This document shows positions 19,035 through 62,537 of a stretch of DNA of 64,000 nt, in pieces. The notes below the pieces were generated by a model, which made no database searches, was not told the origin of the DNA, and was given only the letters and a program-made list of their open reading frames with translations. How positions within the stretch are numbered: position 1 is the stretch's first letter; every line of letters starts with the position of its first letter. The translations under genes were made by a program, and so were the position numbers. The stretch comes from Styela clava (taxonomy: Eukaryota), in assembly GCF_964204865.1 (NCBI RefSeq), contig NC_135250.1, positions 27,714,001 through 27,778,000 of the forward strand, written 5' to 3'.

Positions 19035-20274
19035 TTATTCGAAAGAAAACTCTTCCAAATCTTCGTCTGTAAAACCACTTTGTGGGTGCCATTGAGGTTG
19101 AAATCCTAAAAGAACAAGTTCAATCGTGAGATACATGTTCCACATTGATTGAGTTTATCAGTACTCCCGTAGTATGTGTACCAGGTTAGGGTTGGGCCTT
19201 AATTTTATTCCAATTTTCCCTATTTTAGTTCTATTACTAGTTCGGTGACTGTCTTGTGTTAGCCAAGTGAATATACCCCCTGCCCATAGGCTTCCGTCCC
19301 TTTACACAACTTGTGTGAAGTAGTCGAAAAAAATAAGTTACCTCCATATTGGTACACACACTCCTTGAGCGCCAGTTTAGCTAACTCAGGCATAAAATAC
19401 TTTACCGGTATAAGAAAGGATATATTTCATTCATGTGTATATATATTTATTCACAACAGCAATATTCCTCGTTTAGTTTTCATTTTCAATATTATGAATG
19501 CTTAATATCTTTTGTACGAGTATTTTTAAAAGAACAAGATGGGCACTCGCTACTCCGAGTTTTCCAATTGCAGACTCACAGTTATATAAAGTTCCTCTAT
19601 TAAAATAACTTACTAGTAAAATGTAGCAGTGGCTAAAACATGGTTCCAATTTAATTTGACTTAACAGTTTTGAAGTCTGACTAAATTACCGATACCTTGG
19701 AGTTCAAAATGATGTTTTCGGGGGTATAAATAATGTCTTCAACACCAGCTTGCAACAACAGATTTCAAATCTATATTTCTGGTCTAAATACCATTTAAAA
19801 CTTTTTTTAGCGAATGTTTTAAATTTCAATAAAAACGAAATATTCTCACTTTTTGTGCCCCATTTCATTGGACGAAAGAAAGTTGTGCGAACTATTCCGC
19901 CACGAATTGTTTCACGAGGTCTTTGAAATGTGTGTCTAAATGGTCGATAAGTTTCTGTTCTTTTGCTGAAAAATTAGAGAAATATAAAATACAGATACGG
20001 CAGAATGAATTAAATTAGCTCATTATTAGAAACCTCATTCTTTTCATCTTCAAAACGAAATGTGCTATTTTAAATTCACAGTTTTCACCGTGATTACGCC
20101 TTTGTTTTTTGAAAACATTAGAAAATAACTAAAATTTCGTATTTCGTGCAAATTAAAAATATATATGAAACCAATAGATATAAAAACTTAAGAGATGTCG
20201 ACCTACCTCCACCACGAAGTTGATGTTTGGATTAGAAGTCCAACAATGCAAATGAATAAAATCATTCCATGCAT
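19035..20274 (-). CDS. Secreted host-defence-like prepropeptide, copy A (84 aa, 3 exons)
   Basis: Exons 20207-20274, 19850-19965, 19035-19105; GT-AG introns in phase 2 and 1. Protein MHGMILFICIVGLLIQTSTS-WWSKRTETYRPFRHTFQRPRETIRGGIVRTTFFRPMKWGTKRFQPQWHPQSGFTDEDLEEFSFE*. TATAAAA about 40 nt upstream of the ATG. Confidence 0.82.
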
Positions 20275-20310
20275 TATTTGGGTTATAATCTAGTTAACAA
20301 AAGAAACCAC

Positions 20311-20317
20311 TTTTATA
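20311..20317 (-). promoter_or_regulatory. Putative TATA box of peptide gene A
   Basis: GCTTATAAAAG on the minus strand. Conserved at 23991-23997 (B), 43968-43974 (E) and 62596-62602 (F); altered in C and D. Confidence 0.6.
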
Positions 20318-21884: not shown

Positions 21885-22168
21885 TGTTACTTATCGATCT
21901 TTAGATCGGTAAGTATGTTGATAGGTGTTTGTTTGTCTGTTAGATGCACGCGATATCTCACGAACGCGTGGTTGATTCTGCTCCAAATTTTGCATGTGCA
22001 TTCATCATATCTCGGACCAGAAGCCTATTAATTTTGGATTTATTAATTATGTCGTATAATTAGCGAGTTATTAATTAATTAGTGATGGGACACGCGGTGT
22101 CACTATAGAGTCATGAATCGAAACCGCAGTTTCGATCGATAAGTCTTCAGTCTCCGACCGATATTCTT
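21885..22168 (+). mobile_element. Helentron-associated (DINE-1/HINE-like) element
   Basis: Subterminal inverted repeat ACTTATCGATC (21889) and GATCGATAAGT (22134), GTTT/GTCT microsatellite near the 5' end, T-rich flanks. It interrupts a block that is contiguous in the paralog near 25590. Confidence 0.6.
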
Positions 22169-22468
22169 TTCTAAGTATTATCAAGTTACCGTATTTGATC
22201 AGTTTTTGGTGACCTGACTAATTTTCATTCCATTCCTTGGCATTGTAATTAAGTAACTTCTCTTCTGATTTGGTATTTATGCAATTTGCATTTGAATAAC
22301 GAATGTTTCAGTAATGAATGTAATTCCATATTAAACGTTACACAGAGAAGAGACTAAGAATACACAAATGCATAAGAAACACGCACTAGCATTTTGTGTG
22401 TCAACAAAAATCTACTTCAATTTGGATACCAGGTCATTTTGAGTGGCTGCAATTAGTGTTTTAGCTTC

Positions 22469-23932
22469 TTATTCGAATAAAAAATCTTCCAAATCTTCGT
22501 CTGCAGAATCACCTTGGACGTCCCACCTAGATAGGAATCCTGTGTATACAAACGTCAATCGTGAGATACATGTTCTACATTGACTGTCTTTTGCCAACTA
22601 GCTCCGGCCCGAAACACTTTGACAATATGAACATAACATTCCATAGGGGTATATAAATAATGACTATATTAATATTTCTAAGTTCGTTTCTCTATGGGTT
22701 TTCGACTTTATAAATAATGTTTTCCATGAGTATTTTCAAAAGCACAAGATCTATCGAGATGTGCACTCGCTACTTCGACTCCAGATTACTAGGTGATATA
22801 TATGTAACACTGCCTCAATCTCGTAGCTAAAATTATTTATCACTGCACATTAATCCCGTGAAAAGCATTGTTTCAATTTGATTCAACTTCGAAGTTAAAC
22901 ATCTGACTAAACAAATCTGTTCCGCCCCGCACCCTACATCAGGGGAATAAAATTGATACTTTATGAAAATATAAATAAAGACTTTAACACCAGCTAGCAA
23001 CAGACTCTAAATCCAATGTCTGTTAAGAATAGAAAATTGGAATTTTTTTGAGCGACTGTTGTCAATTATCACATTTAACGGATTGTTCTTACCCTTTACA
23101 TCCCATTTCCATGAATGGTAATTGGTTGTCTTTACCCCCCATTTACTTGGACGGAAATAGGTTGTTCTGGAAAAAAAAAAACGGTATGAAATACAGATAT
23201 GGTTCGTTTGTAGAATACATAATTAAGTCTGTCGTGGACAGTGTCGTCTTTACCATTGACCTAGAGGCATCTAGCTCTCTCAATTGTAAAGGTTTCTTCC
23301 AGAATGAAGCCGGTATAAAATGTTACAAAACTGATATTTGTTTAATGTTTTGGGCGGGTTATTATATTTTGTCCCAAATTTTTTAGCGTCCAAAAGATTA
23401 AAACAGAATACGACCGAATCAATAAATTTGTCCAGTTTTAAAAATCGCTACCTCTTCAATCTTGATAACGTAATATGCTATTTTAAAATACCAGTTTACC
23501 GTAATAATGCCATTACGTTTTTGAAAAAAAGAGAAAATATCTCAGCAACAACGAATCTAATACTTGATATATTTATTACTAGTTCGTATCGGTAGACGTA
23601 TTTCATGCAAGTTAAAATAAATTCAATACGTCATATGCAAGAAATGTATATGATGAAGTCACAAGGGTTTCATGACGTCAATATTACTCGAGTTACAAAG
23701 ACTGATTTCTCTGACTGATTTGCGTTTTCATTGTAAGCCACAGTTGAATAATTACAAAAGCTTTCAACCGTTACTAACAAAAATTAGGAAATACATGGAT
23801 TCGACAAAAATATTAAAACTTTAAATACTGTCCTCATAACCCCGATAAGATATCGACCTACCTATACCATGCCGAAGTTGATGTTTGGATTAGAAGTTCA
23901 ACAATGCAAATGAGTAAAATCATTCTATTCAT
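22469..23932 (-). CDS. Secreted host-defence-like prepropeptide, copy B (71 aa, 3 exons)
   Basis: Exons 23862-23932, 23093-23166, 22469-22539; phases conserved. Protein MNRMILLICIVELLIQTSTSA-WYRTTYFRPSKWGVKTTNYHSWKWDVKGFLSRWDVQGDSADEDLEDFLFE*. A Glu in the signal h-region may weaken secretion. Confidence 0.8.
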
Positions 23933-25922: not shown

Positions 25923-28476
25923 TTATTTGAAAGCGAACTTTTCCAAATCTTCGGCTGCAGAATCACCTTGGCTTCCTGTGTAATAAAATGTCAATTATGA
26001 GTTACTTGTTCGACGATTACTGTGTTTGGCCAGTTCCTACCCTAAAACACATTCCCAGTAGGAGAAATAATTTCTTTTATTGATATATATATATAAATAT
26101 TCACACTATACGTTCATTTCGCCATTTGTTTTCGACATTGTAAATGCTAAGAATTTTTTAATTAAAGGAGTATTCCCAAAAGTTCGGGATCAAATGAGAT
26201 GGGCACTCGCTTCTTGGAGTTTTTAACTGCATATTGCAGGTGATATATATACCCCTATCTCTTAGCTAAAATTATTCATCCCTGCAAATTAGTGGTATAA
26301 AAAGCATTGTTTTATTTCAATTTAACGTGAAAAAACAGAGTATAATAAAATGAATCTATTCCTACATATACATCAGTTAGACCCCGACATACATCAGTTA
26401 TAATTGATAATTGGTGCCTCAAGGGCGTATAAATAATGTCTTAAATACCAGCTAGTAACAATAGATTTAATTCCCAGTGTTTCTAGTCAATATTCGTGAG
26501 CGCAGGTTGTTGTTTATCAAATTCAGCGGAATGTTCTTACCTTTCCCAACCCATTTCATCGAACGGGCGGGGGCTTTACGGGTAGAAAGTGTTCTTATGA
26601 TGAACTTATCATTCTCATGTGTTTGAAATATGCGCCTGCATGGACGATAAAACTTTGTTCTTGTTCTTTTGCTGAAAAGAAAAACGCTATGAAATACAAA
26701 TATTGTTCAGTGTAGAAAACATAATGTAATCTGTCGTACAAAGTGCCGAATTCACGCTTAGCCTAGGGCAGGGGTCACTAAATTTTTTTGACCACGGCCG
26801 GGGTATGACTCAAAACTGTATTTAAACGGGATGGATGAATATTTTTGTCAGTGCAGTACAATAAAGTCACAAAAGTTGGGAAATCCGTTCAATTTATTCA
26901 ACAATATATATTCTACATTTCTGAAGACTCGAATATTAAATTCTATCTAATTCGCGGAATATAGATCGAGAACATCCTAGGAAACAAATATATATACAAG
27001 ATTTCTATATCTAGACAAATATCCTGAGTTTAGCTGTTATCAAAACGTTGCTGTCATGAATTAGGAATGTTACAAAATCCGCTTTTTTGCGCAAAAAAAT
27101 GTTCGCATCACGTCTGCTGAGTACCGTTACGCCGTGTTGGAATACCGCTCCTAAAAAACGACTACGCACTGCCTGCTGTAGCTTGGAATTCCATGAAATT
27201 TTAACACAATTTAGATAAATTAAACAACTATTATCTATCTATTTAATTTTTTGCATTAGCGCATAAATTTCCCAACATTCGGAGCTTTTAAAAAGTACGC
27301 TCCAGTTATACGTAGTGCAAATTAATTATATTGTCCATGGACACCAATAAAATATTTATTTGCGACGTTCTTTCAGTGGTGTCAATGACCGTTGTCAGAA
27401 TAAAATCCTGAAATAGTCTCAATATTCTATAGATGTGACGCACATGGAAAGATTAGTGATTGATATGTGTTCTTTTTTCTTATTTATTACAGTTCTTATC
27501 AAATAAGTAATACAATCCTTATGGAAAAAATTGACCTGTCGGGCGGTTCTAAAATTCCGATATCTCCGTTGGTAACTTGGTATGAAGTTTAATTTTATTG
27601 TAACATACCTTACGCTTTCAGATTACAGTACTGTTAGCGCAAAATGCACATTCCGCGTTCATTTTAGCCCAATGAACGTAAACAGTTTCGTCGAAAGTGT
27701 CTGAGCGGATGCGAAAATGCCCATTATTACGTCACTTTTGTTGCAGTAGTTTGGTGATCCCTGGCCTAGGGAATCCACGCCTTCTAACTTGTAAAAGTTA
27801 GTTCCAGAATAGAGCCGTTTCAAAATGTCACAAATCTGATATTTGTTCAATGGCCCAGTCAAATTAAAAATTCTTGTTTCAAGTTATTTACCGTTTGAGA
27901 GATTAAAACAAAAAACGTCCAATAAATAAATTTGTCTAATTTGGAGAAATTCTCTTCTCAATCATAAAATCGGAATATTCCATTATAAATCTACAGTTTT
28001 TGGACACCCCGATCGTTTTGCATTTTTGGACACCTTGTTGAAAAGTCGCTTTTCTCTTTGATTACTGAGCCAAAAATTTTAAAATTTCATTTTTAAAATT
28101 TTCAGTTGTTAAAGATGAATTTTCTCTCTAGAAGGCTATTTACTTTTATTCTTTTCAAATATTTCCGTTAGCTCTGTGAGATTCGCCGCCGTAGGACGAC
28201 TTCACCAATAAGTCAATGCACGTGAAACAAATAACTGGCTAATTAATCCAATACCCGACATGGACTTATGGCAGGACGAGTGGCCTTGGTTCGCCATATG
28301 ATTAAGTGACCTTATCGACTTTCCTCGACTTATGTAAAAACTTAACCTATCCTATTTCTAATAACTCAATAAACATTTTTAGTATTAGTAATTTTGTCAA
28401 ATATATCGACCTACCTCCACCACCATGAAGTTGGTGTTTTGATTAGAAGTCCAACAATGCAAATGAGTAAAATCAT
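25923..28476 (-). CDS. Secreted host-defence-like prepropeptide, copy C (81 aa from second Met)
   Basis: Exons 28415-28476, 26541-26671, 25923-25975. Protein MILLICIVGLLIKTPTS-WWWSKRTRTKFYRPCRRIFQTHENDKFIIRTLSTRKAPARSMKWVGKGSQGDSAAEDLEKFAFK*. The ancestral ATG is now TTG and the TATA box is altered. Intron 1 carries a 1-kb hAT MITE. Confidence 0.68.
26769..27763. mobile_element. hAT (Charlie-like) MITE in intron 1 of copy C
   Basis: TIRs CAGGGGTCACTAAA and TTTGGTGATCCCTG. Perfect 8-bp TSD GCCTAGGG at 26761-26768 and 27764-27771. Paralogous introns lack it. Confidence 0.88.
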
Positions 28477-30007
28477 TCTGTGCAATATGAATTATATCCA
28501 CCTGTATAAGCTAGTTGTATGGTGCTAAACAAGGACATGAAAAAATATTATAGTTTTATCACTGCCCTACCTCAGTAATATTTATTAAACCTAATCGAAT
28601 TATAATCGGGACCAAATGGCCGAATCGCGTTATTTTTTTTCATCTGTTTTGGTTTCCTTGCCTAAAGTTGGTATTGTGACCACAAGGTTTGGCTCAATTT
28701 GCTTCTAAGAAATCACAGGCGCCGTCTCGCCAAGGTTGTAATATATTCACTAGCATATGCTTGACAAAAAATTCCGGTATTTTCAAAACATAGCATTGGT
28801 TAATTTAATAAGTCATTTTCCAATGACATATGGCGCTGTTTGAGCGCGTCTCCGTCCTATTTGCAGGATATTTGTAGGCATGTTTACTCTATTTTTAATA
28901 GAATATCTTTAAAAGAATAAAAATTGCTATCATTGCGGGCAATGCTATCGATATATGCTTGTCGCTATTTAGCAACAAGGGTAGCATGCAGCATAATGAA
29001 GGGGAACAACAACAACAACGGATTTTCCAATTTATAGCGCTCACTGCACCAATGGTAATAATTTAGGTGTCTTGATGATGATAAACCATTTTACACGGAC
29101 ATATGGGGGCTGGTTGATCGGCCATTCAAAGCAAGGTGGGAAATATCAATGGTATTTTTGGATGTCTTGATGTCTGATAAAGCCTTTTCCACTGACATAT
29201 GGGCGCTGATTCGAAGCAAGGTGGGAAATACCAATGGTATTTTGGATGTCTTGATGATGATAAAACATTTTCAACTGACATATGGGCGCCTGTTGATCGC
29301 GTCATTGTCGTATTTGTAGGCATTTTTACTTCATTTTTTATTAGAATATTTTTGATAGAATATAATTTGGATGGAATATTCTACGGGCAATGCTTACAAC
29401 ATGTTTTTTTCTCTATTTAACAACAAGGGCGGCATGCACTATAATGAAGGGTTACAACAACACATATTCTTCAATAAAATACGATAATCACAAAAGAGCT
29501 TCATCCACAAACTGTTCAAATTCGAATATTTGTTAACCAGCCATTACATGATTAATCAGTCACTGGAGCAAATATGATGAATCATGCTGTTTATTCACTT
29601 TGTGATTATAACATATTTCTGCGTCCCAGTTTGCGTTAATAAGTGATTGTACAAGAATTATTCAGAAAATTGGAATTATTCCCAGAATAAGTTTCATATG
29701 GAAACCGATCCTTGAGCAAAAGAAAACTCATTCATACGTCCCTTACATGCAAATATAATATACAAATATAAGTACAAATATTAAACAAATATAAGTACAA
29801 ATTGAAGCCTAACTATGTATAAAAATATCTAGGAAAAAAATAGTGTTACATTCAAAAGTTTTTGAAAATTTAGTTCGAAAAGATTTTGTGAAATATAAAA
29901 AACGCGTATACATCGGTTGGGCTAAATATTAAGATGCACGCTCCTCGTTTTCCGTAGTTTTATTGTTAAATTAAAGTGTTTTTGAGATAGGATGAATGCT
30001 ATTGAAT

Positions 30008-32174: not shown

Positions 32175-33113
32175 CTGTTGAAACCCATGTCATTGATTGG
32201 GAGGAGGAGGCTGTTCTGGTAAATCCATACCCCTATTCCCGGGATGTGTTTGAAATCTGTACCGGCATGCACGATAAAACGTTTTGAACTTTTTGCTGAA
32301 GAATAAAAACGTTATGATATACAGATATTGTTCATTGTAGAACACATTATGAAGTCTGTCGTGAACAGTGCCTGATTTACCCTTAGGCTGGGGGAATCCA
32401 CGCCCTCTAAATTGTAAAGGTTCGTTCCAGAGTATCGCCGGTTTAAAATGTAAAATGTAAATAAAACTAATATTCGTTTTATGTTTTAGTCAGGTTAGGA
32501 ATTCTTGTCATGAAATACTCAACGCTCAAAAAATTAAAACAAAAATACGATCAAATAAATAATTTTGTGAAACGATACTTTTTGAATCTTGATAACCTAA
32601 TCTGCTATTTTAAATTGACAGTTTTTACCGTTATATTGTTATTTTTTATTTTGCCTTAATTTTTTTTTTTAAATATGGAAAAATATATCGGCGATAGAGT
32701 ATCTAAAAATTAGTATATTCATTGCTATATCTGATCTATAAATCCGTTTATTTCTAATAATGCAAAGAACGGGTAATATTGACATCAGGTTTTCTGGTGA
32801 TGTTTTTTTTACATTTTCGATTTTTGGCGGTTTTTAAATTCAACTTGCTATCAAATCTTCTTGTGTGATAATGGTATTATCATGCTTGTAAAATTCCGCG
32901 AGTTAAAATTAAATTTATGACGCCATATAAAGATGTAATTTTTCTGACGTCATTTTCAACCAAGCTATTCGTAAATATAGCGACGGGTTCGACACCAATA
33001 TGAAATTTTTATTACTGGCTTCATAACCCCGATAAGATATCGACCTACCTCCATCATGAAGTTGATGTTTGGATTAGAAGTCCAATGTAAATGAATAAAA
33101 TTATTCTATGCAT
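32175..33113 (-). pseudogene. Prepropeptide family copy D (pseudogene)
   Basis: Exon 1 at 33049-33113 reads MHRIILFIYIGLLIQTSTS*W (TGG changed to TGA). Exon 2 at 32175-32295 is 121 nt and frameshifted (KKFKTFYRACRYRFQTHP.../..TRTASSSQSMTWVST). Exon 3 is absent: intron 2 joins upstream-type sequence near 32010. Confidence 0.8.
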
Positions 33114-48509: not shown

Positions 48510-48527
48510 GTTTTTCAAATATTTCAG

Positions 48528-48588
48528 CTCGTCTCTTGCAACTACGTCTCTTGCAACCCGTCTCTTGCAGCCCGTCTCTTGCAACTAC
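48528..48588 (+). repeat. Four ~14-bp tandem repeats (CGTCTCTTGCAAC) just upstream of the X1 ATG
   Basis: Four copies in X1 versus a single copy at the equivalent X2 position near 55224. Confidence 0.8.
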
Positions 48589-48957
48589 ACCGAAGAACTT
48601 ATATGGTAATCCCAAGGTATCAATTTGAAAACGTAAATGTCGGGCAAGGCAACAGTTGTTACGTTGCATTCATCAGAGTACCCATGTATCTATACTCTTT
48701 ATTACGTGTACTAAAGCGATGAATTTTACTTGCCAAATGCAGATTAGTAATTGTAAAGTACGCTCTATGTTGATTGGTAATATGTCGAATCACTTCCTCG
48801 TGCACAAACGATCACCTTCAACAGTTTACTAAGGTTCGTTATTTGAAATCATGATCTGACTAATGTAATTCAATGATTGAGATCGAATCTTCCAACAAAA
48901 TTTTGAATTGGAAGTATTGCTCATTTAGTTCCTGAACGCTTTGGATATTTTTAATTT

Positions 48958-49160
48958 GGTTCCATTACACTTGAACCCACGTAAATTTGAACCCATGACA
49001 ATTGCACCTGTATGCTATTGCACCTATGGAATTTTTTTTGTTTCACGGATAGTTAAACCCATACTAACCCTAACCCATGGGTTTTAGCACCCGCATATAG
49101 ATTGAACCCGTGGATATACGCATGGGTTCAAATGTACATGGGTTCAAATGTACGGTCACC
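48958..49160. mobile_element. MULE-like MITE upstream of X1
   Basis: GG...CC ends with repeated TTGAACCCA motifs. 9-bp TSD TTTTAATTT at 48949-48957 and 49161-49169. The empty site is visible upstream of X2 near 55600. Confidence 0.85.
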
Positions 49161-51410
49161 TTTTAATTTACTTAGATTACTCTCCACGAATTATGTACTT
49201 TAAAAGTGAAGTGGTCAAATCATGAACAATTCTATGTATATATAATGAGAGAGCGATCCAATATATGGATACGCAGTGATATTGGTCAGAGCTGCCATAC
49301 CGGCACTATATCGCAGCTGAGCACAATATTTTAATTGCAAAAGCGGAACCACCACAAGTAGGTCAATTTTTAATTTTTATGACGTCATCGCACAAAAAAG
49401 GAATCTCATAAAGGCATACACATATTTTTGATATAAAAAAATATAATCGACTTCTAGATAAAAACACAATCTCTAACCACTGAAAATCTCAAAGCTATTG
49501 GTCTAGTAATTAAAGGGAAAGACGTTTTTTCACAAAAAGAAGAAGAAAAGAAAACCTAACATGATGATTATCAAGTACAACAATACAATGATAAAACGAT
49601 CCCTATGTACACTTTAACCAGGACCAACCAATCAACAAGAGAGAGCAATGATCAAATATATGGACGCAAAGGTCATGCATCGGCACCAGTACGGTTAGTC
49701 TTGAGTTAAGCAGCACATTTACAGCAACGAATGTAGAGTTCCAGTAAATAACTGGAGTAATCCTCTCCTGAAAAATATTTCCACTTTCATGTCCCCAAGA
49801 TTTGAAATCGATTGGTGTATTAGTTTTGTTCACAACAATTTCAGGTGTAAATATTTCTTACAATTTGTTTCAGTCTTGATTCTGCATTTTAATTTGGGTG
49901 CGTATCGACCGACGCATATATTTGATAATTATTTTTTTATCTTATTCAATGTTTTCAAACGCAAGTATTTCGGAGTTTTCTGTATTGAACTATTTTCAAT
50001 GCTATACGAATTCCTTTTCCATTTGCAGATTTTTCCATTTCTTAAAAAAGGAACATTGGTAAACTTGTGTTTGCTTAATAAGAATATGACCATTGGTTTA
50101 ACGTCTAGGACAAAATCCCGAGGTAAAAATCGTTAGCAAACGATCTTTCTCTGCAGGTGTGATCTTGTTTCAACTTTGGAAGCCTAATCATTCACGCCGA
50201 CAAAAATTATAGTTGTACATCTAAGAACATACCTACAGATACATTAGTTAAATGATAATGATTTTTGCCATAAACTAACACTAATATATTTTAACATTTT
50301 TTTTGATCCGTACAGTTATACCTTGTCTCGTTTTTTAATTAAATTCTATCTAAAAGAATAGCATATTTAAGCAGAATTTCACAAATGACATATTATTGAA
50401 TGTTCACGGAGATCACTAAATAGCCGTTTTAATTGTACTGCATGCGTGTGATACCTAAAGATATAAATATCCTTTTTATAACCTGAAATTTTGCACCTCA
50501 ATTTCCTCGTCAAATTTATCAGAAACCGAAACCATGATAACAAAATACTTTAACGTAAATTGAGAAGTCACGCGAGAATATTAAACGATCCATTGCATCC
50601 TGTTTGTTGCACTCTTGAATTTCTCATCACAAATTTCTATTGATACAATTTATCCCTTAATAAATTATGTCCATGCTTTCTAATAATTGTTTGTTATAAA
50701 GTTGTTCTTTAGATTTCCATAAATTTTATTTCAGATCTGGAAGAAAAAGGACGTTATGCCACACTATTATTCCAGGTTGAATATAAATATCGCTTTGCAA
50801 CTTGAATGTTTTCCACATTTATAATTGAGTCAGTATTCGATCCTGCAAACCCACAAGATTCCAGATCGCTAATACATATTTTCAATAGTTGTCGCATACA
50901 AGCATTTAATTAATATGCGATTAGCAATAATCTAAATGTTATAGTTTGATATTACATCTAAGATTAGAATTTATATTTTATTTTTTCAATATCTACTTCA
51001 TATAGATGAATTTATTTATAAAAAAAAAAAAATTTAAATTAAATTGAAAATGTATACAGTTTTTTTGTAACTTATTTAAAAAAGAAATTATTTAAGCCAA
51101 AACTCGTTTTTTCTACAGATATATCAAATATATATTGATAAAATACACGAAAGAGTACATGGAACATCTAAATAGTGTTTGAAATACGTCTTGAGAAAAA
51201 AAAAAAAATAAGAAGTCTTAACCCAGGTCGCTAAAGTTATCTGTTAAATATATGTATGATTATTTTGTATTTCTATATATACTCTATTATAGCAAGATCT
51301 GATTTTTTAATCAGGAGTGACTATACCCAATCATGTCTAGTTACAACCAGTCAATAACATGAAGAAGAATTGAAATTAATGTTTAACAAATAAACAGGAA
51401 TAAGGTAAAG

Positions 51411-54400
51411 TCAATATTCAATATCATGATACGGGTGAAAATTTGTCGGTTCGTATCCAGATGATTCGTCAGGTTGTTGCAATGAATCACTCGTCAAGAA
51501 TTTAATCTGATGTCTTGGATCGGGATGAGAGGTCATTGCAGAATGCTCGTGACAAATAGGCAATTCGTATCCACAAGTTTCAGTAGAGCTGGTTGTCTTT
51601 GATTGTTTAATAGTGTTGTTTTCGTAGATTTCGTGTTCACATCCAAACTGAGCTTTTGATATATTTTTCATACTTGGTTTCTCATTATTCCGGATAGCAG
51701 TTGTATTTCTGTTGTTTTTCAACCTAAAATAAAAATAAAGTGTAGATTTTCAAACTTTGGTAGTATCTCAAATTCTTGCAGGTCTAACTATTTTGGCGCC
51801 TAAGCCAGGGTCGGCCAACCTTTTTAGCCGACGGGCCACATTTAGTTTACTAATAATTGCGCGGGCCACTTAACATGGTAATTATTTTCCAGTTTTGCTA
51901 CACTGACTAAAAGTTAATGAAAGAGCATAGAAAACCCTCGCATCAAACTTTCTCAATAATAAGAACAATAAAAAAAACGAAGATACTGTAAAGTCAACAA
52001 AGGTATTTCTACGCGTAGATATTTTGGTGTGAAGTTTGAAAAAATTTCAATATTCGCTGAAATGAACGATGTAGCAATGTGAAGCCAATTTTTCCTATGA
52101 CTGTCAGAAATTAGTGATTTCACAGGGGATTCAAAGCGTAAAGGCAATCCAAAGTTGTCAACTCATCAATATTTTGCTTCATTGCCAAAACATCAAGGAT
52201 TTTATGCATGCACATACCACGCCTAAACACACAGCATTGGCAATTATCATTTATGCCCCCAGCAGGTTTGACCAAGTAATATTTGGTTGGTGCTACATTT
52301 GAACGAGAGACCACGTGATAAAATAAAAGAAGATTGTCTCACAGATGAGATAACGTTAAAGAAGTAGTAGAAGACCCAAGTGTGTAAGCGACTATTTAAG
52401 TATCGATATCTTCCAGTTGGTTTCGATTCCAAATGGTACTCATCGCTCGTTTGAAAGGGCTAGCAGAGCGCATTTCAGGATCATGAACAAATTTTTTGTA
52501 TCAAATCTTTATATTAACTACATCACTTGAAAATTAGAAATTTTTCCCATTTTTTTTTATTTATTTTCGAAAATACAGCGCAGGCCACTCGAAACTCCCC
52601 GGTGGGCCACATGTGGCCCGCGGGCTAAGGTTTGGACGATCCTGGACGAAGCCTTGTAGATACAACAGTGATGACAACATTTCGACAATGCTAACGAAAG
52701 CAAATTCGACAATTAATGAATTTAATGTTTCTTGATTATGATTTTGACCTACTTCTACCGATCCCCGATGTCGTACTAACGACTCAACCACTTTTGAATC
52801 AGCTAAAAATAATACCTCTCTAACACAGTTTATATTATTCAAAATAGAAAATCCATTTTTTTAAAACTGCTTTGTTGATATGTGATACGAATACCCATAT
52901 GGACATCTGAAAGCCGGCAGATTCCGAGAGTTTCCAGATTTGAAAACAATAGATAATAAATTGGATGCTAGCTCTTTTAAATCAATGCCCTTGTCTATGC
53001 AATGTTTATTCAACATCCAATAGTTATTTTAATCTTACCTGGTAACAAGGACAATAATGATGATCACTGCAATAACGAGAAGAATGCCAAGTACAATAGT
53101 GGAGATGACGATGATTTTCCCAGTTTCTTTGCCAAAGTCGTCACTACTTGTACTTGATTTTGTTATTTTCTTAACTCCAGTTTGTTCAAACGACGAAGTT
53201 GTTGCTTTATTTGTGAGCAGGTCCCAGTTGCCTTCAGTAGTTGCATTTTTATCATTTTTAAAATCTGCAAAGTTTATATAATTCACCATATTTGAACAAT
53301 AACATTCATTACAACATTCTCAATTCTGATATTGACGGCATTAAAGTTTAGGAGATAAAATTCACACGAATTTTAATTTTGTTCTATTTAATTTTTTTCT
53401 TAAAATATTTCGTCGATTTTAGTAAAGCCTAAAAATTTGTTTGTCATTTTGTTTATATTATACAAAAGCAATAACTAAGTCGTGCTAATGAATGATGGCT
53501 CAAAAGGCCATAACTATTCAGTTCGGTCTAAATTAGAATAAATTCCTTGTTTATCATTGGCTCATTCGTTTTACCTTTGCTGCTTGTTTTTACATAAATT
53601 GAGGGAATGCGAAAATCTTGGAAATGATCATAGAAACCATCCTCTGTCTTATAAGTAATATTTATTGTAAATATATTGCCTTCAATGATGATATAAGGAA
53701 ATATTCTTGCACATCCGTCAGTAATAGAATCATTAGATACATTTTTGAAGTAAAAATGAAACAGTCGTTTGGTTGGGAATCACGAAGTTCTGTGCTAATT
53801 TGATAAAAAAATTGCTATTTGCTGTACGGAGCATTTTATATAGATAGATTGATAAAAATTGAATACAATAGGGAGAACTTAAGTTGAAAGAGACTAATTA
53901 TATCTGCTTTTACCCGTGTTGTTTAATATCCGGTGTATTAACTGGATTTTGAATTTTTGAAATTCATGAGTGTAACCATCTCCTGTCTTATATGTCAAAT
54001 TAATTGGAAAAACATTATCTCCAATGATATGCTGGTGTATCCTATTACATCCGTCAGTAATAGATTCATCCGATACGGTTTTTGAGGCGAAAAGGAAACA
54101 GTCGTTGAGATTGGAATCACACAGTTCTGTATCCACTAATCCGGCTGAAACATATTGAAATTGGTTCTTTTACATGATAATGCATGATATTACCTCCCAT
54201 AAATTACCATATACGGTATTGTATATTAAATAAAAGTTGTTTAATTGTTACAAATAAACACAAAAAATGTATTCACTTTGATTACCAGTAATTTTCAGAG
54301 ATCCAATGCACTGAGTGTTTTGATTGAGATTATTTTCAATAATTTTAACTATCAAGACGCTGTTAACAGATGTGCAACTATCGGTATTTAATTCCCAAAT

Positions 54401-55200
54401 AGTGTGAATATCCGCTGCTCTTCTGAAAAATACAATTTAAAAATGACTATTTAAACTATATTTTCATGTTCATATACGGCTGGATGATCATGAAACTTCA
54501 TTTCATCATTTTTAAAAAGTTTATCAAAATCAGAATTTTCTTATATTTTACATCATTCTGTTGATTATTATTCATGTTGAAATTATTTTTCATTGTATTG
54601 GATGCTTTATTTGTATCAATTTTTTTTTAATTTAATCAAAGGATATAGAAATGTTTACCTTACACTTGCTCGAAGTTCGGGTTTGGAACAAGAATCAACA
54701 TTAAACTGACCCAGACCGATAGCTTGGTGAAGTATTGCTGTCACTATCGGTGAACAAAAATGAAGATTAGTTACGTTGAAAATTTTTCCCGGAACTGACA
54801 AGCCGTAAATCCGTTTTGAGGGGTTTGAGTTTCGAATACGCGATATATAATATTAAAGATGACTTCGTTAAGTATATGTACAATTATATGCATTTCAAAA
54901 GTCAACTATCTCACTTAGTACTAATTAGTTAGATCCTCGTTAAAAAAAGGCAAGTTATAAAACGTTGAAGTCCCGAATTTCTAAAAGACTAAACCCTCGA
55001 TGAATTTCTATAATTCATATCACTCACTCGTAAAAGTTTTGGAATTATATAAATTTGAAAGAACTCAACGAATTTATTCCTTGTACGTAGTGAAGTAAAC
55101 AACATCTATCCACTGATATACATTATTGAAAATCCCTAATAAAAACGATATGAACAAATTACTCACCGATAAGTGACAATAACCGCGCGAAGAGATGCAT
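51411..55200 (-). CDS. Type I membrane protein X2 (344 aa): same CUB-like ectodomain, different stalk/TM/tail
   Basis: Exons 55167-55200, 54659-54743, 54277-54422, 53914-54144, 53039-53264, 51411-51723 total 1035 nt in frame. Exons 1-4 have the same lengths as in X1 (34/85/146/231). TM IIVISTIVLGILLVIAVIIIIVLV; tail has IYEN, GYELP, GYEPT, PYHDI and a terminal Y. Confidence 0.8.
51806..52644. mobile_element. hAT-like MITE in the last intron of X2
   Basis: Ends CAGGGTCGGCCAA and TTGGACGATCCTG. TSD gcctaagc/gacgaagc (6 of 8). The empty site gcctgagc is in X3 near 58818. Confidence 0.75.
53575..53800 (-). pseudogene. Diverged tandem duplicate of receptor exon 4 (exon 4') inside X2 intron 4
   Basis: Reads TELRDSQPNDCFIFTSK / VSNDSITDGCARIFPYIIIEGNIFTINITYKTEDGFYDHFQDFRIPSIYVKTSSK with a phase-1 GT donor and a 1-nt frameshift in an A-run. 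The counterpart in X3 is at about 59705-59905. Confidence 0.65.
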
Positions 55201-55875
55201 GTTTTCTCAAATATGTCAGCTCCCGTCCTTTGCAACTACACCGAAGAACTATATGGTTATCCCAAGGTATAAAATTTGAAAACGTGAAACTTTGCCAAGC
55301 CAACAGTTGTTAACGCATGCGTTCATCAGAGTATTTATGTATCTACTCTTTTATTACGTGTACTGAAGCGATGAATATGTCTTGCCAAATGCAGATACGT
55401 AATTGTAAAGTACGCTTTTTGTTAATCGGCAATGTGTGATATCATTTCCTTGTGCACAGACGATCACCTGCAACAGTTTACTAAGGTTGTTAATTTGTAA
55501 TCAGGATCTGACTAATGTAATTCAATGATTGAGATCGAATCTTCCGAACAAAATTTTGAATTGGAAATATTGCTAATTTAGTTCCTGAACACTTAGGATA
55601 TTTTTAATTTACTCAGATTACTCTTCACCCATTATGTATTTTGAAAGTGAATTGGCCAAATTATGAACAATGCTATGAAACAAGAGAGCGATGGTCAAAT
55701 ATATGGTCACGAAATTGTACGGGTATGCAATTTGTCACATTTCGGCACGGTATTGCAGTTGAGCACAAATTTTAACTTACGCAAAGGTGAAACCACCACA
55801 ACGAGCGCAATTTTTAATTTCGATGACGTCATTGCACACAAAAAAACAAATCTCTTAGAGGCCACACATATTTTT
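54230..55875 (+). repeat. Segmental duplication of ~47535-49430 (exons 1-3 and upstream region of X1 and X2)
   Basis: Collinear introns, exons and 5' flank. Confidence 0.85.
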
Positions 55876-58018
55876 GAGAAAGAGCATAGCCCAAATATGT
55901 GGACGCAAAGGTCGGGCATTGGTACTGGTACTGAAAGGCTCAAGCTTAGCAGGGTATTGACTGGAAGATCGCCGGACAAGCGTGGCGGAATGAAGTCTCA
56001 CTAGCACAACCATCTGTTCGATGTTTGGGCATATCCACTTGGTATATCACCTTCATAAAACGAATATATAGATACAATTACTAACTGCAGTACCTATGCA
56101 AACTAAACTAAAATTAGCATTCAGCTGAACAGTGAACATCAGCGGTGTCAAATGCCACGTGGTCGCGCAATATTTGTGATAATAAAGAGACATTGGATGA
56201 AATGTGGAACCTAACAAGGCTCGAAGGATATTTGAAAAAATGTAAAAGTAATTCTCTCCTGGAAACTACTACCACCTTTATGTCATCAAGATTTGAAATT
56301 GATTGGTCCATTGGTTTTGTTCATAATAATTTCAGGTGTAAATATTTCTTACGATTTGTTTTAGTCTTGTTGCTGCATTTTGATTTGTGTCTGTATCAGG
56401 CAACGCATTTTCTGATGAGACTCGGTAGTGTTTTAATTTTGATTATTTGTTTAATATTTACTCATCTTATTGATATTCAAACAAAAGAATTCCGAAGTTT
56501 TTTTGGGTTTATTGGTATTGAATTATTTTTCAATCCTATACGATATTTCTTTTCCAACCGCAGACTTTCCCATTTTATAAAAATTAAACGTTGGTGAACT
56601 TGTGTTTGCGATGTTACACCATAGATTTAGACGTCTAGGACCACATGCCGTATGCCAAATCGTTAGCAAACGATCTTTCTCTGGTGGTGTAATCTTGTTT
56701 AAACTTTGGAAGCCTAATCAATCAAGCCAACAAAAATTATAATTCTATATCTAAGAACATACCTACAGACACATTAGTTAATTGATAATGATTTTGCCAT
56801 GAACCCACACTAATATGTTTCAATATTTTTTTTTAATTTATACATTTATAACTTGTCTCAGAAATTCTATCAGAAAGAATAGCACATTTAAGCAGAATTT
56901 TACAAATAACATGCTAATAAGATAAAAAGATAAAAAACCTGTCTTTATAACCTGTAATTTTGTCATTATGTTCTGAGCAATAAGCACCTCAATTGTCTCG
57001 TCAACGTAATCAGAAATTGAAACCATGACAACAAAAAACTTTATCGTAAATTGAGAAGTCACGCAGGAAAAATAAACGATCTATTACATCCTGTTTGCTG
57101 TACTCTTGTATTTCTCATCCTCAATTTCTATTAATAAAATTAATTCCTTAATAAATTATGTCCATGCTTTCCAATAATTGTTTATTATAAAGTTGCTCTT
57201 TAAGTATCTATAAATTTTAATTCAGATCCGGGAAAGAAAGGACGATATGCCGCACTATTATTTCATATCAAATATAAAAATCGCTTTGCAACTAGAACTC
57301 CACAATTGTAGTTAAGTCAGCATTGCAGACAAGCATTTAATATGCGATTGAAATAATCTTAATCTGAACGTTATAGTTTGGTCTTACAATAGCGATTACA
57401 AGTTATATTTCATTCTTTCAGTATCTATTTCATATAGATGAATCTATATAAAAAAAAATAAAAAAGTTTGAATTAAATTGAAAATGTATACAGCAATTTA
57501 CTTAAAAAATTGTTTAGGCCTAAACCCGTTTTTTCTTGATGTATATCAAATATATATTGATAACCCACTATACTTTCCTAAAATCTCTCTATGTCTACTT
57601 TAGACATTTAACTTGGCTCATTTAAATTTCATGTTGAATGAGAACAAATATTGAATAAAAAGGCCAAATAAAATACACGAAATAGTAAATGAACATCAAA
57701 TAGACTCTAAAATTCGTATTAAGAAAAAAGGGGGTACTACCGTAGTATGTGCATCAATATGGCGTACACCGGAACGTAGTATGTGTATAAAGTTAGGGTC
57801 AGTTCATAATTTCAGGTACAAATACTACGGGAGTCACTTGGCTAGTCCCCGAACTCATAATAGAACTGAAATAAGAGAAATCGGAATAAAATTATGGCCT
57901 AACCCTAACCTGTTACACATACTATGTTCAGGTGTCCACCATATTGTTGCACATACCACAGGAAAGCCAAAAATGGAGTCTTAACTCAGGTTGCTAAAGT
58001 TATCTGTTAAATATATGT

Positions 58019-58272
58019 GCTGGTATCAGTGGGCCACCCTCTATTGTCGTTAAATATAACGTCACTTAAGCGTGCAAATACCGCGTCATTGGAGCCTGTA
58101 GTGTCAACCTTAATTAAATCGACTGAACAGATGATGCGAGTGCGACAACATCAAGAGTGGTAACGATTTGACACTTATGAAGCACCATCTGTTCTGTCGA
58201 ATATATAAGTCCATAAACCGAAAAAGTGACGTTATATTAAACGACAATAGAGGGTGGCCCACTGATACCAGC
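58019..58272. mobile_element. Small MITE with ~50-bp TIRs
   Basis: GCTGGTATCAGTGGGCCACCCTCTATTGTCGTT.AATATAACGTCACTT and its reverse complement. Flanked by ATATGT on both sides. The empty site is in the paralog near 51250. Confidence 0.85.
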
Positions 58273-58427
58273 ATATGTATGCTCATTTTTTTGTTATACT
58301 CTATTATAGCAAGGTATGACCACTTAATCAGGAATGACTATACTCTATCCTGTTTAGTCACGAGTAGTCAGTGACATGAAGAGGAACTGAAATTAATGTT
58401 CAACAAATAAACAGGAATAAGGTGAAG

Positions 58428-60030
58428 TCAATATTCAATATCATGATACGGGTGAAAATTTGTCGGTTCTTATCCAGATGATCCATCTAGTTGTTGCAAT
58501 GAATCGCTCGTCAAGTATTTAATCTGATCTCTTGGATCGGGATGAGAAGTCATTGCAGAATGCTCGAGACGAATAGGCAATTCGTATCCAGAGGTTGCGG
58601 TTTGTATTGCTATTTGTATTTCACCGTTCACGACGTTGTTCTCATATATTCCGAGATCACATTCAAACTGAGCTTTTGGCATATTTTTCATACTCGGTTT
58701 CATATTCTTCGGGGTAGTAGTTGTATTCCTGTTGTTTTTCATTCTAAAATTAAAAAAAAATGTATGCATTTTCAAGCTTCGGTAGTATCTCAATTTCTTG
58801 CAGGTAGCTATTACGGCGCCTGAGCCTTGGAGATACAACGCTGATGCAAATATTTAAAATATGCACACGGAAGCAAAATAGACAAGAAAGGAATTTGATG
58901 TCTTTTGATACTTGGAATGATTTTGACCCACTGCTACCGATCCCTGTCGTCGTACTAACAACTCAACTATTTTCAAATCAGCCTAAGATAATTAGTCTTC
59001 AACACAGTTGATATTGATCAAAACAGAAAATACAATTTTTAAAACTGCTATGCCGATATGTAATACCAATCATCATATGGGCATCAGAAAGCGGGCAGAG
59101 TCCGAGAAATGTCCATGTTTGTGCAATGTTTATTCAGCATCCAATAGGTATTTGAATCTTACCTGGTAACAAGGACAATAATGATGATCACTGCAACAAC
59201 GAGAAAAATGCCAAGTACAATAGTGGAGATGAAGAAGAATTTCTCATTTTCTTTGCAAAAGTCGTCACTACTTGTAGTTGGTTTTGTTATTTTCTCAACT
59301 CCAGTTTGTTCAAACGACGCAGTTGTGGCTTCATTTGTGAGCAGGTGCCTGTTGCCTTCAGTAGTTGTATTTTTATCATCTTGATGAGCTTAAAATTTCT
59401 ATAATTCACTATATTTAAATAACAACAATCATTACAACATTCACAATTCCAATATTGACAGCATTAACGTTTATGAAATAAAAACCACACGACATTCAAT
59501 TTTAATTTTGTTCTAATTAATTGTTTTTCTAAAATATGTCGGAATTTAATATAGCTCAAAAATGTGCCAAGTTATTTTGTTTATATTGTATAAAAGCAAT
59601 AACTAGGTCTTGCTAATGAATGACCGCTCATAAGATCATAACTATGCAGTTCGATCCAAATTACAATAAATTCCAAATTTATCATTGGCGTATTTGTTTT
59701 AACTTTGTTGCTTGTTTTCGCATAAATTGAGCAAATGCAAAATGATCATAGAAACCATCCGCTGTCCCATAAGTTATATTTATTGTAAATATATTGCCTT
59801 CGATGATATCCTAGCACGTCCATTGGTAATAGAATCATTACATTTATTTTTTGAAGTAAAAAGGAAACAGTTGTTTGTTTGGGAATCACAAAATTCTGTG
59901 CTGATTGAATAAGCATTTTGTACAAATAAATTGATAAACATTGAATACAATACGAAGAACTTAAGTCGAACGAGACTAATTTCTTTTGCATATACCTAAT
60001 TTGTTGCTTTTACCCGTGTTGTTAAATATC
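58428..60030 (-). pseudogene. Receptor X3, 5'-truncated paralog of X2
   Basis: Retains only the last ~18 nt of exon 4 (60014-60030), the stalk/TM exon (about 59163-59389) and the tail exon (58428-58743). The GYEPT Tyr codon has become TAA at 58470-58472. Exons 1-3 are absent. Confidence 0.72.
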
Positions 60031-61240
60031 TCGTATAACTGTTTCAATATCTGACTAGGACCGGTGATGGGACTACGAGGCCGTGGTTAGTCATATAGTC
60101 AAAAACTGGCTCCGTGCCTTCTTATTTTTGAGACATAAATATGAAATACCTTGTCTCTTTCATGTCGTATCCATGCCTCCAATGAATCCAAGCCAAATAG
60201 GCTATTTGAATAGTAAACTGCAGATATTTGAATATTTTGCTAGCACTAATCAGTAACCAGTAAATAATTATTAACTTGATTAATTTTATGTTACCGAAAT
60301 AATATTGCGTTTTAGGTAATATGTAAATTCTTTTGAAATCAGCTTGGCTGGTATTAAAGTTTGGTACAAACGTTTCCGACCCGTAATGAATTTCATCATG
60401 TGGAAGTGGCCCGTGAGACGAAAAAGGTTGGGCAGGCCTGTTGTGAGGAGTTGCTAGAAGGGTATTTTCTGAAATTTTGTTGAGCTCTGTGGTTGGGCTC
60501 GAATTTGTTATGCTTTGAATATGAAACCTCCGTGTCATCTGAGCATTGAATTTTAGTTTTTATAGAATCTTATTGTTGATGCAAAAAATATTACAATACA
60601 CGTACTAAGGTAACTAAGCCATATTGCTAAGTACTGTAATGGCAAAACAATAGTGATGAGGCTGTATATGGAGTTTGTCGGCTTGGCTGATGGCGACATT
60701 TAGGTAACCGTGATAAAAATGTTATGAAATTAAATGAATTAAGATGATCAATTTAGAAAGCTTGGACCGACTTGCTAATGTAGGTGACGACGTGAATGTC
60801 TTCCATTACATTCCTTCTAGGCATTGTATGATGTAAATTCTCTTCTTATTTGATATCTATGAAATGTGCGTTTGAATAGCGAATGTTGCAGTAATTTGCA
60901 AGATGTTTTACAGGTTGGTTTTAAAATCTAGCCTGGGCTGTAGCTGTATAATTATTATCAAGTCAACTCATAGAGCCTGCACGGACATGTATGCTATTTC
61001 AATTGATGAGCTGATTGTCTTCCCTTACATTCCCTCTAGGCATCATCTATGCAATTTGCGTTCGAATACCAATTGTTTCAGTAATGAATGTATTTCCAAA
61101 TTTAAACGTTACACAGAAAAGAGGCTAAGAATTCGCATTTCCATCAGTATATCAAATGTCAATGTATTGTACATATTTTTATTAATTAGACACAAAATTT
61201 TCAGTTCTTTTGGAGTGGCTGCAATTGGTGTCTCAGCTTC

Positions 61241-62537
61241 TTATTCAAAAGAAAAATCTTTCAAATCTTCGTCTGCAGTATCACCTTGGACGTTCCACCG
61301 AGATAGGCCGAGACCGTCCACACCTGTGTATATAAACGTCAATCATGTGGACTCGCTATCTCGTACTTCGACTCCAGATTATTAGGTGATATATATGTAA
61401 CACTGCCTCAATCTCGTAGCTAAAATTATTTATCACTGCACATTAATCACGTGAAAAGCATTGTTTCAATTTGATTCAACTTCGAAGTTAAACATCTGAC
61501 TAAACAAATCTGTTCCGCCCCGCACCCCACATCAGGGGAATAAAATTGATACTTTATGGAAATACAAATAAATAATTTAACACCAGCTAGCAACAGCAAC
61601 AGACTCTAAATCCAATCTAAATGTCTGTTAAGAATAAAACAATTGGAATTTCACTGAGCGACTGTTGTCAATTATCACATTTTGCGGATTTTTCTTACCC
61701 TTTACACCCCATTTCCATGGATGGTCTTTGGTTGTCTTTACCCCCCATTTACTTGGACGGTAATAGGTTGTTCTGAAAAATAAAAACGCTATGAAATACA
61801 GATATGGCTCGTTTGTAGAACGCATAATGAAGTCTGTCGTGGACAGTGGCGGATTTAACATTAGCCTGGTGGCCCACACCTTCTAAATTGTAAAGGTTTC
61901 TTCCAGAATGAAGCCGGTAATTAAAATGTTACAAAAATGTTATTTGTTTAATGTTTTAGTCAGGTTTTTAATTCTTGTCCCAAATTATAGAGCGTTCAAA
62001 AAATTGAAACAAAAATATGGCCAAATGGATAAATTTGTCTAATTTTGAGAACGTTCCCTCTTTGATCTTAATAACGTAACTTGCCATATTAAAATCACAG
62101 TTCACAGTTCACCGTAGAATATCTCAGCAACAACGAATCTAGGAATTAGTATATTTATCACTATTACTATCGCGCCACTGATTACCCTGCTTGGGATCGC
62201 AGGTTCGATTCCGTCGGGGAATAAATTTGTACAAGTGGATTGCTGGATTTCTCGCCGTCGTAGCGTCGTACGGTTCATCAACAAGTCCATACCGATAAAA
62301 CAAATAAATGCCTGGCTGATTGAATAATACCCGACATGGACAGGTAACCAGACGAGTGGCGTGGTTCGCCATATGCTTGAGCCTCATTAGGGAAATACAG
62401 CAAGCGAATCAACAAAAATATCAAAACTTTAAATAATGGTCTCATACCCCCGATGAGATATCGACCTACCTATACCATGAAGTTGATGTTCGGATTAGAA
62501 GTCCAACGATGCAAATGAGTAAAATCCTTCCTTGCAT
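61241..62537 (-). CDS. Secreted host-defence-like prepropeptide, copy F (74 aa, 3 exons)
   Basis: Exons 62470-62537, 61699-61772, 61241-61323. Protein MQGRILLICIVGLLIRTSTS-WYRTTYYRPSKWGVKTTKDHPWKWGVKGVDGLGLSRWNVQGDTADEDLKDFSFE*. Exon 2 is visible inside ORF 61628..61879. Confidence 0.82.
62165..62385 (+). mobile_element. Truncated SINE-like repeat in intron 1 of peptide genes
   Basis: Contains a B-box-like GGTTCGATTCC followed by ggattgctgga..tcgccg..taatacccgacatggac..gacgag..ggttcgccatatg. Related copies at about 43535-43752, 28175-28330 and 34872-35150. Confidence 0.5.

What the first reader, a model, noticed from the sequence alone, without database searches (positions are those of the whole stretch)
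19850..61772. Exon 2 is a hypervariable cassette built from a 12-residue TT-x-x-R-P-x-K-W-G-x-K module
Seen: exon 2 is 116, 74, 131, 50 and 74 nt in intact copies A, B, C, E and F (all 3n+2), and 121 nt only in pseudogene D. A ends in one module (TTFFRPMKWGTK) after a long Arg-rich extension. B and F consist of two tandem modules (TTYFRPSKWGVK/TTNYHSWKWDVK and TTYYRPSKWGVK/TTKDHPWKWGVK). E has one module (TTYTRLMGWDVK). Signal exons and introns remain alignable. Inference: frame-preserving indels show selection for a product, and diversification is concentrated on the effector exon, as in pathogen-driven peptide families.
Basis: partly seen in the sequence, partly recalled or inferred. Interest (0 to 1): 0.72.

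Follow-up and report, generated by a model that had tools for sequence, protein, structure and literature searches.

The report
Modular sea-squirt defence-peptide gene cluster
A sea squirt carries 15 neighbouring copies of a small secreted-peptide gene, likely for an antimicrobial peptide, whose middle exon gains or loses a 12-residue unit and has been copied from one gene into another, but this exon changes no faster than its introns, so an arms race with microbes is not shown.

Summary
The exon lengths and modules are exactly as reported. The locus is a 15-copy tandem cluster in Styela clava (6 copies in the window, 9 in the next 170 kb). Each gene has three exons: signal, cationic Trp/Tyr-rich core, acidic tail. 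Eleven copies have open frames and four are broken. Contigs from runs guessed to be RNA join the exons at the predicted splice points. Exon 2 holds one to three 36-nt modules. It is a cassette in a literal sense: copy F carries a B-like exon 2 and intron 2 inside an E-like gene (0 of 500 permutations reach this). Exon 2 is 2-3 times more divergent than exons 1 and 3, but no more than the introns; dN/dS is about 1, with no positively selected class. The layout matches ascidian antimicrobial precursors, but there is no amphipathic helix signal and no homologue was found. The scan noted other S. clava peptide families of this layout on other DNA, not this one. Verdict: a new, non-helical, modular variant of a known kind; activity untested.

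The parts
20207..20274 (-). Copy A exon 1 (signal-type, 68 nt)
19850..19965 (-). Copy A exon 2 (116 nt): degenerate half-module, Arg-rich linker, one full module
19035..19105 (-). Copy A exon 3, acidic tail to stop (71 nt)
23862..23932 (-). Copy B exon 1 (71 nt; Glu in hydrophobic stretch)
23093..23166 (-). Copy B exon 2 (74 nt, two 36-nt modules)
   Evidence: RNA-type contig covers 23092-23168 with 2 other letters
22469..22539 (-). Copy B exon 3 (71 nt)
   Evidence: contig joint skips 553 nt with CT..AC ends, equal to predicted intron 2
28415..28485 (-). Copy C exon 1 (71 nt; TTG in place of ATG, ATG at codon 4)
26541..26671 (-). Copy C exon 2 (131 nt): degenerate half-module, linker, module with internal insertion
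25923..25975 (-). Copy C exon 3 (53 nt)
33049..33113 (-). Copy D exon 1 (65 nt, in-frame stop in this assembly)
32175..32295 (-). Copy D exon 2 (121 nt, out of frame; no exon 3 found downstream in this assembly)
43842..43909 (-). Copy E exon 1 (68 nt)
43064..43113 (-). Copy E exon 2 (50 nt, one module)
   Evidence: RNA-type contig with 79 letters between exon 1 and exon 3 pieces = 13+50+16 predicted for E
42643..42725 (-). Copy E exon 3 (83 nt)
62470..62537 (-). Copy F exon 1 (68 nt)
61699..61772 (-). Copy F exon 2 (74 nt, two modules, B-like)
61241..61323 (-). Copy F exon 3 (83 nt)
61350..61806 (-). B-like tract (exon 2 plus most of intron 2) inside the otherwise E-like copy F; inferred gene conversion; best-fit lower edge 61285
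   Evidence: informative sites 65 B:9 E inside, 41:219 outside, 0 of 500 permutations; B-F distance 0.058 inside vs 0.263 outside
45700..60600 (-). Three single-pass receptor-like genes between E and F, part of the larger unit that duplicated with the peptide gene (approximate span)

Best explanation
This is a 15-copy tandem family of three-exon Styela clava genes (signal exon, cationic Trp/Tyr-rich exon 2 with one to three 36-nt modules, acidic-tail exon) that likely encode antimicrobial peptide precursors, with exon 2 diversified by module gain and loss, in-frame indels and inferred gene conversion rather than by detectable positive selection. Shown: gene structure, copy number, splicing of three transcript types, frame keeping, the F mosaic, intron-like substitution rate of exon 2 and slower exons 1 and 3. 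Inferred: the signal is cut after the Thr/Ser run so that the peptide starts with Trp; the acidic tail (net -2 to -8) masks the cationic core (net +1 to +12) in a secretory granule and is cut off near the exon 2/3 junction (Lys|Arg in 5 of 11 copies, Lys|Gly or Asn|Gly in 6 of 11); the released 19-47-residue peptide binds anionic microbial surfaces through Lys/Arg and Trp/Tyr in an extended, non-helical form, possibly after styelin-type modification of Tyr, Trp, Lys and Arg. Modules have no spacers, so they are probably parts of one longer peptide and not separate products; the Lys-Lys pair between modules 2 and 3 of most three-module copies is the only internal dibasic site.
For: Organism: the neighbouring Cas-family gene clusters with two S. 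clava proteins. 15 copies, all at one locus, none found elsewhere in the genome by DNA, exon 1, exon 2 or exon 3 queries. Charge polarity in 11 of 11 open copies. Spliced contigs in 3 of 3 RNA-type runs laid on copy B, none of this kind among the listed joints of the DNA-type run. Same signal/cationic/anionic order as 17 of 22 Ciona LCAMP candidates, with mature peptides that can start with Trp (PMC7387483, Tables 1 and 3) and as mussel myticalins (PMC5577615 passages). Birth-and-death: 4 of 15 copies broken (D, I, L, N). Module history: same-position modules differ by 0-5 nt between three-module genes but mostly 7-13 nt within a gene, and N keeps modules 1 and 3 only; the N-terminal 'extension' of A, C, D, O starts with an in-frame half-module (ranks 986, 29, 36, 259 of 527,966 windows, about 27 being true modules).
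Against: No activity, tissue or peptide-level data. No amphipathic helix signal: 10 of 11 predicted mature peptides are matched or exceeded by 125-345 of 500 shuffles, only C is borderline (15 of 500). E is nearly neutral (+1) and the three-module copies carry several Glu/Asp (+4 to +5 over 39 residues), weak for membrane killing in seawater. Omega is not below 1 in any exon (1.33, 1.01, 2.39; all n.s.), so purifying selection on amino acids is not shown; the young clade lacks frameshifts, but only 2.3 were expected (P=0.10). No cleavage site was predicted by a dedicated tool. The runs are 'RNA?' by the tool's guess and are contigs, which can be chimeric among paralogs.
Confidence: 0.62

Rival explanations
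1. Pathogen-driven diversifying selection on exon 2: same peptides, but exon 2 variation is adaptive and fixed by positive or balancing selection.
For: Exon 2 is 2-3 times more divergent than exons 1 and 3; 12 of 15 distinct exon 2 changes in the young clade are nonsynonymous; the conversion tract moves the effector exon; an RNA-type contig has a B-like exon 2 between exons 1 and 3 that match no assembled copy at the listed sites.
Against: Exon 2 is not faster than introns; 12 of 15 is the neutral expectation (p=0.47-0.54); omega 1.01 and no site class above 1.
Confidence: 0.25
2. The peptides are Tyr(DOPA)/Lys/Arg catechol-cation precursors for wound plugging, tunic hardening or adhesion, and the tandem module is a structural repeat whose number tunes cross-linking.
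For: Tyr-Tyr next to Arg/His/Pro and Lys in most modules; non-helical; ascidian blood-cell peptides carry DOPA and can be phenoloxidase substrates (PMC9966394 passages). The likeness to mussel adhesive repeats is recalled, not tested.
Against: Only 1-3 repeats, an acidic tail typical of defence precursors, and long Arg-rich non-repeat cores in A, C, O.
Confidence: 0.12
3. The peptides are ligands of the single-pass, Tyr-tailed receptor-like genes interleaved with them, and the unit that duplicates is a ligand-receptor cassette.
For: A receptor-like gene of one tail type lies directly upstream, same strand, of 10 of 10 copies E-N, with a remnant upstream of C; ectodomain has a weak CUB-like lead (best score 0.87).
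Against: A, B, D and O have no such neighbour; several receptor exons contain stops; segmental duplication carries neighbours regardless of function; earlier scan notes report passengers in other S. clava clusters (unchecked). No binding test was run.
Confidence: 0.08
4. Most copies are near-neutral duplicates swept along by expansion of the receptor array; only one or two make a useful product.
For: Omega about 1 in all exons; 4 of 15 broken; no contig of the three-module clade was identified among the pieces listed (a call aimed at copy B).
Against: Six exon 2 length classes all in frame (chance 0.004 at one in three); exons 1 and 3 much slower than introns (p<0.0001); three different spliced types seen.
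Confidence: 0.1

Closest known systems
Ciona linear cationic alpha-helical AMP precursors (Ci-MAM, Ci-PAP, Ci-META4, KH.C1.640 group; PMC7387483, text parts 1-2 of 5 read)
   Same: Short secreted precursor, signal then cationic core then anionic C-terminus; conserved signal; mature part can start with Trp; a Trp-Asn/Asp pair near the core-tail boundary is seen in several Table 1 rows and in exon 3 of B, E, F.
   Different: No amphipathic helix signal; central Pro in the module; internal 12-residue tandem module; signal does not follow either published Ciona consensus; C and O contain Cys.
Styelins and clavanins of Styela clava; botryllin (PMC9966394, PMC10608444, PMC2866484, passages)
   Same: Same animal or family; precursor with acidic tail; rich in the residues (Tyr, Trp, Lys, Arg) that styelin D modifies.
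   Different: No Pfam Clavanin match and no significant similarity to the two clavanin loci of this genome, where mature peptide and tail share one exon; no KHK motif; not Phe- or His-rich helices.
Myticalins of Mytilus (PMC5577615, PMC12294457, passages)
   Same: Conserved signal and anionic tail around a length-variable, Arg/Tyr/Pro-containing linear core with variable repeat number; pseudogenes; Lys-Arg at the boundary (here in 5 of 11).
   Different: No sequence link; in myticalins signal and mature peptide share one exon, here the core has its own exon that can be exchanged.
Multipeptide AMP precursors (apidaecin, ant hymenoptaecin; PMC3415428, passages)
   Same: Tandem coding modules of variable number.
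   Different: Those repeats are flanked by spacers and dibasic sites that release separate peptides; here modules abut without spacers and number only 1-3.

Membership tests
Ascidian linear cationic alpha-helical AMP (LCAMP) precursors | Short (50-100 aa) precursor with N-terminal signal peptide | tested here: met
   66-84 aa in 11 of 11 open copies, hydrophobic exon 1; cleavage site inferred by eye, no SignalP available
Ascidian linear cationic alpha-helical AMP (LCAMP) precursors | Cationic core followed by anionic C-terminal region | tested here: met
   core +1 to +12, tail -2 to -8 in 11 of 11
Ascidian linear cationic alpha-helical AMP (LCAMP) precursors | Amphipathic alpha-helix in the mature peptide | tested here: not met
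   helical moment not above shuffles in 10 of 11; C borderline 15 of 500; 1-3 Pro in every peptide
Ascidian linear cationic alpha-helical AMP (LCAMP) precursors | No cysteine in the mature peptide | tested here: inconclusive
   none in 9 of 11; one in C, two in O
Ascidian linear cationic alpha-helical AMP (LCAMP) precursors | Antimicrobial activity and haemocyte expression | not testable with these tools
   contigs show splicing only; tissue not on record
Clavanins (PF05452) | Match to the Clavanin profile; His-rich 23-mer behind an N-terminal pro-segment | tested here: not met
   0 families for 6 of 6 exon translations; genome's two clavanin loci lie elsewhere on C1 and give no significant match
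Styelins / botryllin | KHK motif, Phe-rich 31-37-residue helix | tested here: not met
   motif absent from 11 of 11 translations; feature taken from PMC9966394 passages
Multipeptide AMP precursors (apidaecin type) | Spacer and dibasic processing site around each repeat | tested here: not met
   modules abut; Lys-Thr between modules 1 and 2 in most, Lys-Lys only before module 3
Positively selected immune effector family | dN/dS above 1 or faster-than-intron change in the effector exon | tested here: not met
   low power noted

The most novel reading that the evidence does not exclude
An invertebrate chordate builds a combinatorial peptide repertoire: the effector exon is a mobile cassette of 12-residue units that is multiplied, trimmed and swapped between fixed signal and tail exons, differs between individuals, and is co-inherited with an interleaved array of about 30 orphan Tyr-tailed receptors for which the peptides serve as matched ligands.
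Probability: 0.07. Interest if true: 0.8.

Novelty: new variant of a known kind. Interest (0 to 1): 0.4.

Why it matters
It adds an apparently unannotated 15-gene family of short, non-helical, Trp/Tyr-rich cationic peptides from an animal known for salt-tolerant, heavily modified antibiotics. The copies form a natural series (one, two, three modules; same exon 2 in different backbones) in which the effect of module number on activity can be tested with 12-39-residue synthetic peptides. It is also a caution: a 'hypervariable' effector exon here is an exon changing at intron rate between two slow exons, plus gene conversion, and needs no arms race.

Tried and rejected
Homologue searches for exon 2: none at E<=0.1 among 2 candidates of 13-86 residues (longer and shorter classes not searched); one hit at E=9e-4 among 1.84 billion representatives, a 209-aa repetitive protein without signal, judged chance; no PDB match; no Pfam family; no usable ESM Atlas hit. 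Queries were single exons of 22-49 residues, so these blanks are weak. No RNA holder was listed for copy F; this is no evidence on expression. The first lay of contigs (15 kb over A-D) was swamped by high-copy repeats and gave nothing on exons. Allelic variation in module number could not be read: DNA contigs laid at 80% likeness mix paralogs. IQ-TREE codon output could not be parsed; an own MG94-type fit with kappa fixed at 2 was used. B-F and B-E whole-intron distances include unalignable stretches and were not used. F was left out of the independent-pair tests because it is a mosaic; C, D, O modules (internal insertions) and broken L, N modules were left out of the codon fits. The promoter/NF-kB/polyA scan found no NF-kB-like site in 400 nt upstream of 15 of 15 copies with one simple pattern; not informative. 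No structure or complex was predicted: the peptides are too short and have no alignment depth. Literature: eight searches listed no paper on this family; subscription papers (original styelin and clavanin cDNA papers) and supplements were not seen.
Full report
OBSERVATION. Exon 2 lengths are 116, 74, 131, 121, 50 and 74 nt for A-F. The consensus is too narrow: it fits 3 of 6 window modules and 3 of 21 modules in intact genes. The steadier positions are T1, T2, Y3, [YF]4, P6, W9, V11, K12 (14-19 of 21).

WHAT IT IS. The intronless gene at 7502-9928 is a Cas-family adaptor whose 90% cluster holds two Styela clava proteins, so the animal is the ascidian S. clava. A DNA search of the own genome found further copies downstream; in the window plus the next 200 kb there are 15 copies, A-O, all on the minus strand, over about 212 kb. 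Exon 1, exon 2 and exon 3 protein queries hit only this locus (scored candidates only, so a lower bound). Each gene has three coding exons: a 68- or 71-nt signal exon ending in Trp plus an aromatic or His, exon 2, and a 53-, 71- or 83-nt exon with an acidic tail. Eleven copies give open frames of 66-84 residues. Four are broken in this assembly: D (stop, frameshifted exon 2, no exon 3), I (exon 2 cut short, donor lost), L (deletion in exon 1, both exon 2 splice sites dead) and N (exon 2 inverted).

EXPRESSION. Three runs guessed to be RNA and one other run were laid on copy B at 80% likeness. X5 has a 333-nt contig in three pieces, one joint skipping exactly the 553-nt intron 2 with CT..AC ends. 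X10 has a contig with 79 letters between its exon 1 and exon 3 pieces, which is the number predicted for E (13+50+16) and not for F (103). X5 and X9, from two studies, each have a contig with a D-type exon 1 end and a C-type exon 3 (six diagnostic sites) with 132 letters between; that length keeps the frame, while the assembled D exon 2 would give 134. So D may be a broken allele and not a dead locus; the 132 letters were not shown, so the stop could still be present. Tissue and level are unknown, and contigs can be chimeric.

HOW EXON 2 VARIES. (1) Module number: one (A, E), two (B, F), three (G, H, J, K, M, broken L). Same-position modules of the three-module genes differ by 0-5 nt, modules within a gene mostly by 7-13 nt, so the triplication happened once before that expansion; N retains modules 1 and 3 only. 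(2) The long exons of A, C, D and O start with an in-frame degenerate half-module (ranks 986, 29, 36 and 259 among 527,966 windows for an 18-nt profile), so the 'Arg-rich extension' is probably an older module plus linker; C and O also carry short internal insertions. (3) Exchange: F follows E along most of its length but B across exon 2 and intron 2 (65 B:9 E informative sites inside, 41:219 outside; 0 of 500 permutations). Inside the tract B-F is 0.058 and E-F 0.198; outside B-F is 0.263 and E-F 0.090, which points to B-to-F conversion. The X5 contig has a B-like exon 2 (2 other letters in 77) between exon 1 and exon 3 pieces with 11 in 87 and 13 in 153, and its listed site pattern matches none of the 15 copies: a hint of more such mosaics.

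SELECTION TESTS. Frame: six length classes, all 3n+2, need at least five changes; chance is 0.004 at one in three, and only 1 of 18 intron indels in the young clade is a multiple of three. This is partly circular because open frames define 'intact', and the young clade alone is not significant (2.3 frameshifts expected, P=0.10). Rate: in G, H, J, K, M exon 2 has 15 of 110 variable columns against 203 of 1679 in introns (p=0.65). In three independent pairings of A, B, E, G the last module differs at 0.28-0.38, exons 1 plus 3 at 0.12-0.13 and the first 110 nt of intron 2 at 0.28-0.29: module versus exons p<=0.005, module versus intron p=0.24-1.0, exons versus intron p<0.0001 (module orthology is assumed). 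dN/dS: 12 of 15 young-clade changes are nonsynonymous, as neutrality predicts (p=0.47-0.54); one-ratio omega is 1.33, 1.01 and 2.39 for exon 1, modules and tail, none different from 1; a site model gains nothing (p=0.996). The better description is slow flanking exons around an exon that changes at intron rate. Why exons 1 and 3 are slow without omega below 1 is unexplained; conversion among copies or constraint at the nucleotide level are candidates.

MECHANISM (inferred). Predicted cores carry +1 to +12, tails -2 to -8; the exon 2/3 junction reads Lys|Arg in 5 of 11 and Lys|Gly or Asn|Gly in 6 of 11. This is the signal/cationic/anionic layout of Ciona LCAMP precursors (PMC7387483, parts 1-2 of 5) and of myticalins (PMC5577615 passages). 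I infer storage with the tail masking the core, cleavage near the junction, and action on microbial surfaces by an extended Trp/Tyr/Lys/Arg peptide, perhaps modified as styelin D is (PMC10608444 passages). The helix test fails for 10 of 11, so it is not filed as an LCAMP. It is not a clavanin: the genome's two clavanin loci have mature peptide and tail in one exon and show no significant match. Modules lack the spacers of apidaecin-type precursors (PMC3415428 passages).

CONTEXT. From E onward the peptide genes alternate with single-pass receptor-like genes annotated only as uncharacterised S. clava proteins; 10 of 10 copies E-N have the same tail type directly upstream, and about 23 further tail exons of a second type lie between them. 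The ectodomain has a weak CUB-like lead (0.87). Shared segmental duplication explains this; a ligand-receptor link is possible but has no direct support.

NOVELTY AND VERDICT. No homologue (short single-exon queries, weak blanks) and no paper in eight searches (listings, with passages or sections read for seven papers; no supplements). Earlier scan notes describe other S. clava peptide families of this layout elsewhere in the genome and nothing like this sequence. Real, transcribed, apparently unannotated family; new non-helical modular variant of a known precursor type; adaptive claim not shown. Interest 0.4.

Noticed in passing
window 45700-60600 and on to G000:C1 about 27,950,000: Array of about 30 single-pass receptor-like genes or remnants (signal, Cys-containing ectodomain with weak CUB-like lead, Thr-rich stalk, TM, Tyr-motif tails of two types) interleaved with the peptide genes; RefSeq names them uncharacterised.
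   Followed up: partly
window 7502-9928 (-): Intronless Cas-family (NEDD9/BCAR1-like) gene, 803 aa, bordering the cluster.
   Followed up: yes
L016:2770-2843 region, G000:C1:27932770-27932843: Copy N has exon 2 with flanking intron inverted and an insertion at one breakpoint; the inverted exon has lost the middle module.
   Followed up: partly
window 10269-11377: Element with 221-nt, 96% inverted arms around a 63-nt tandem array, MITE-like.
   Followed up: no
window 29050-29470, 44120-44780, 62880-63810: 83-96-nt minisatellite upstream of peptide genes C, E and F, also seen upstream of later copies and longer in some.
   Followed up: no
window 26541-26600: In copy C the start of the module differs from other modules by a one-base loss and a one-base gain a few codons apart, a local frame shift that returns to frame (read by eye).
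   Followed up: partly
window 30421-30813 (+): Open frame resembling the end of a LINE reverse-transcriptase region between C and D (recalled resemblance).
   Followed up: no
exons 1 and 3 of all copies: Much slower than introns yet omega not below 1; unexplained.
   Followed up: partly
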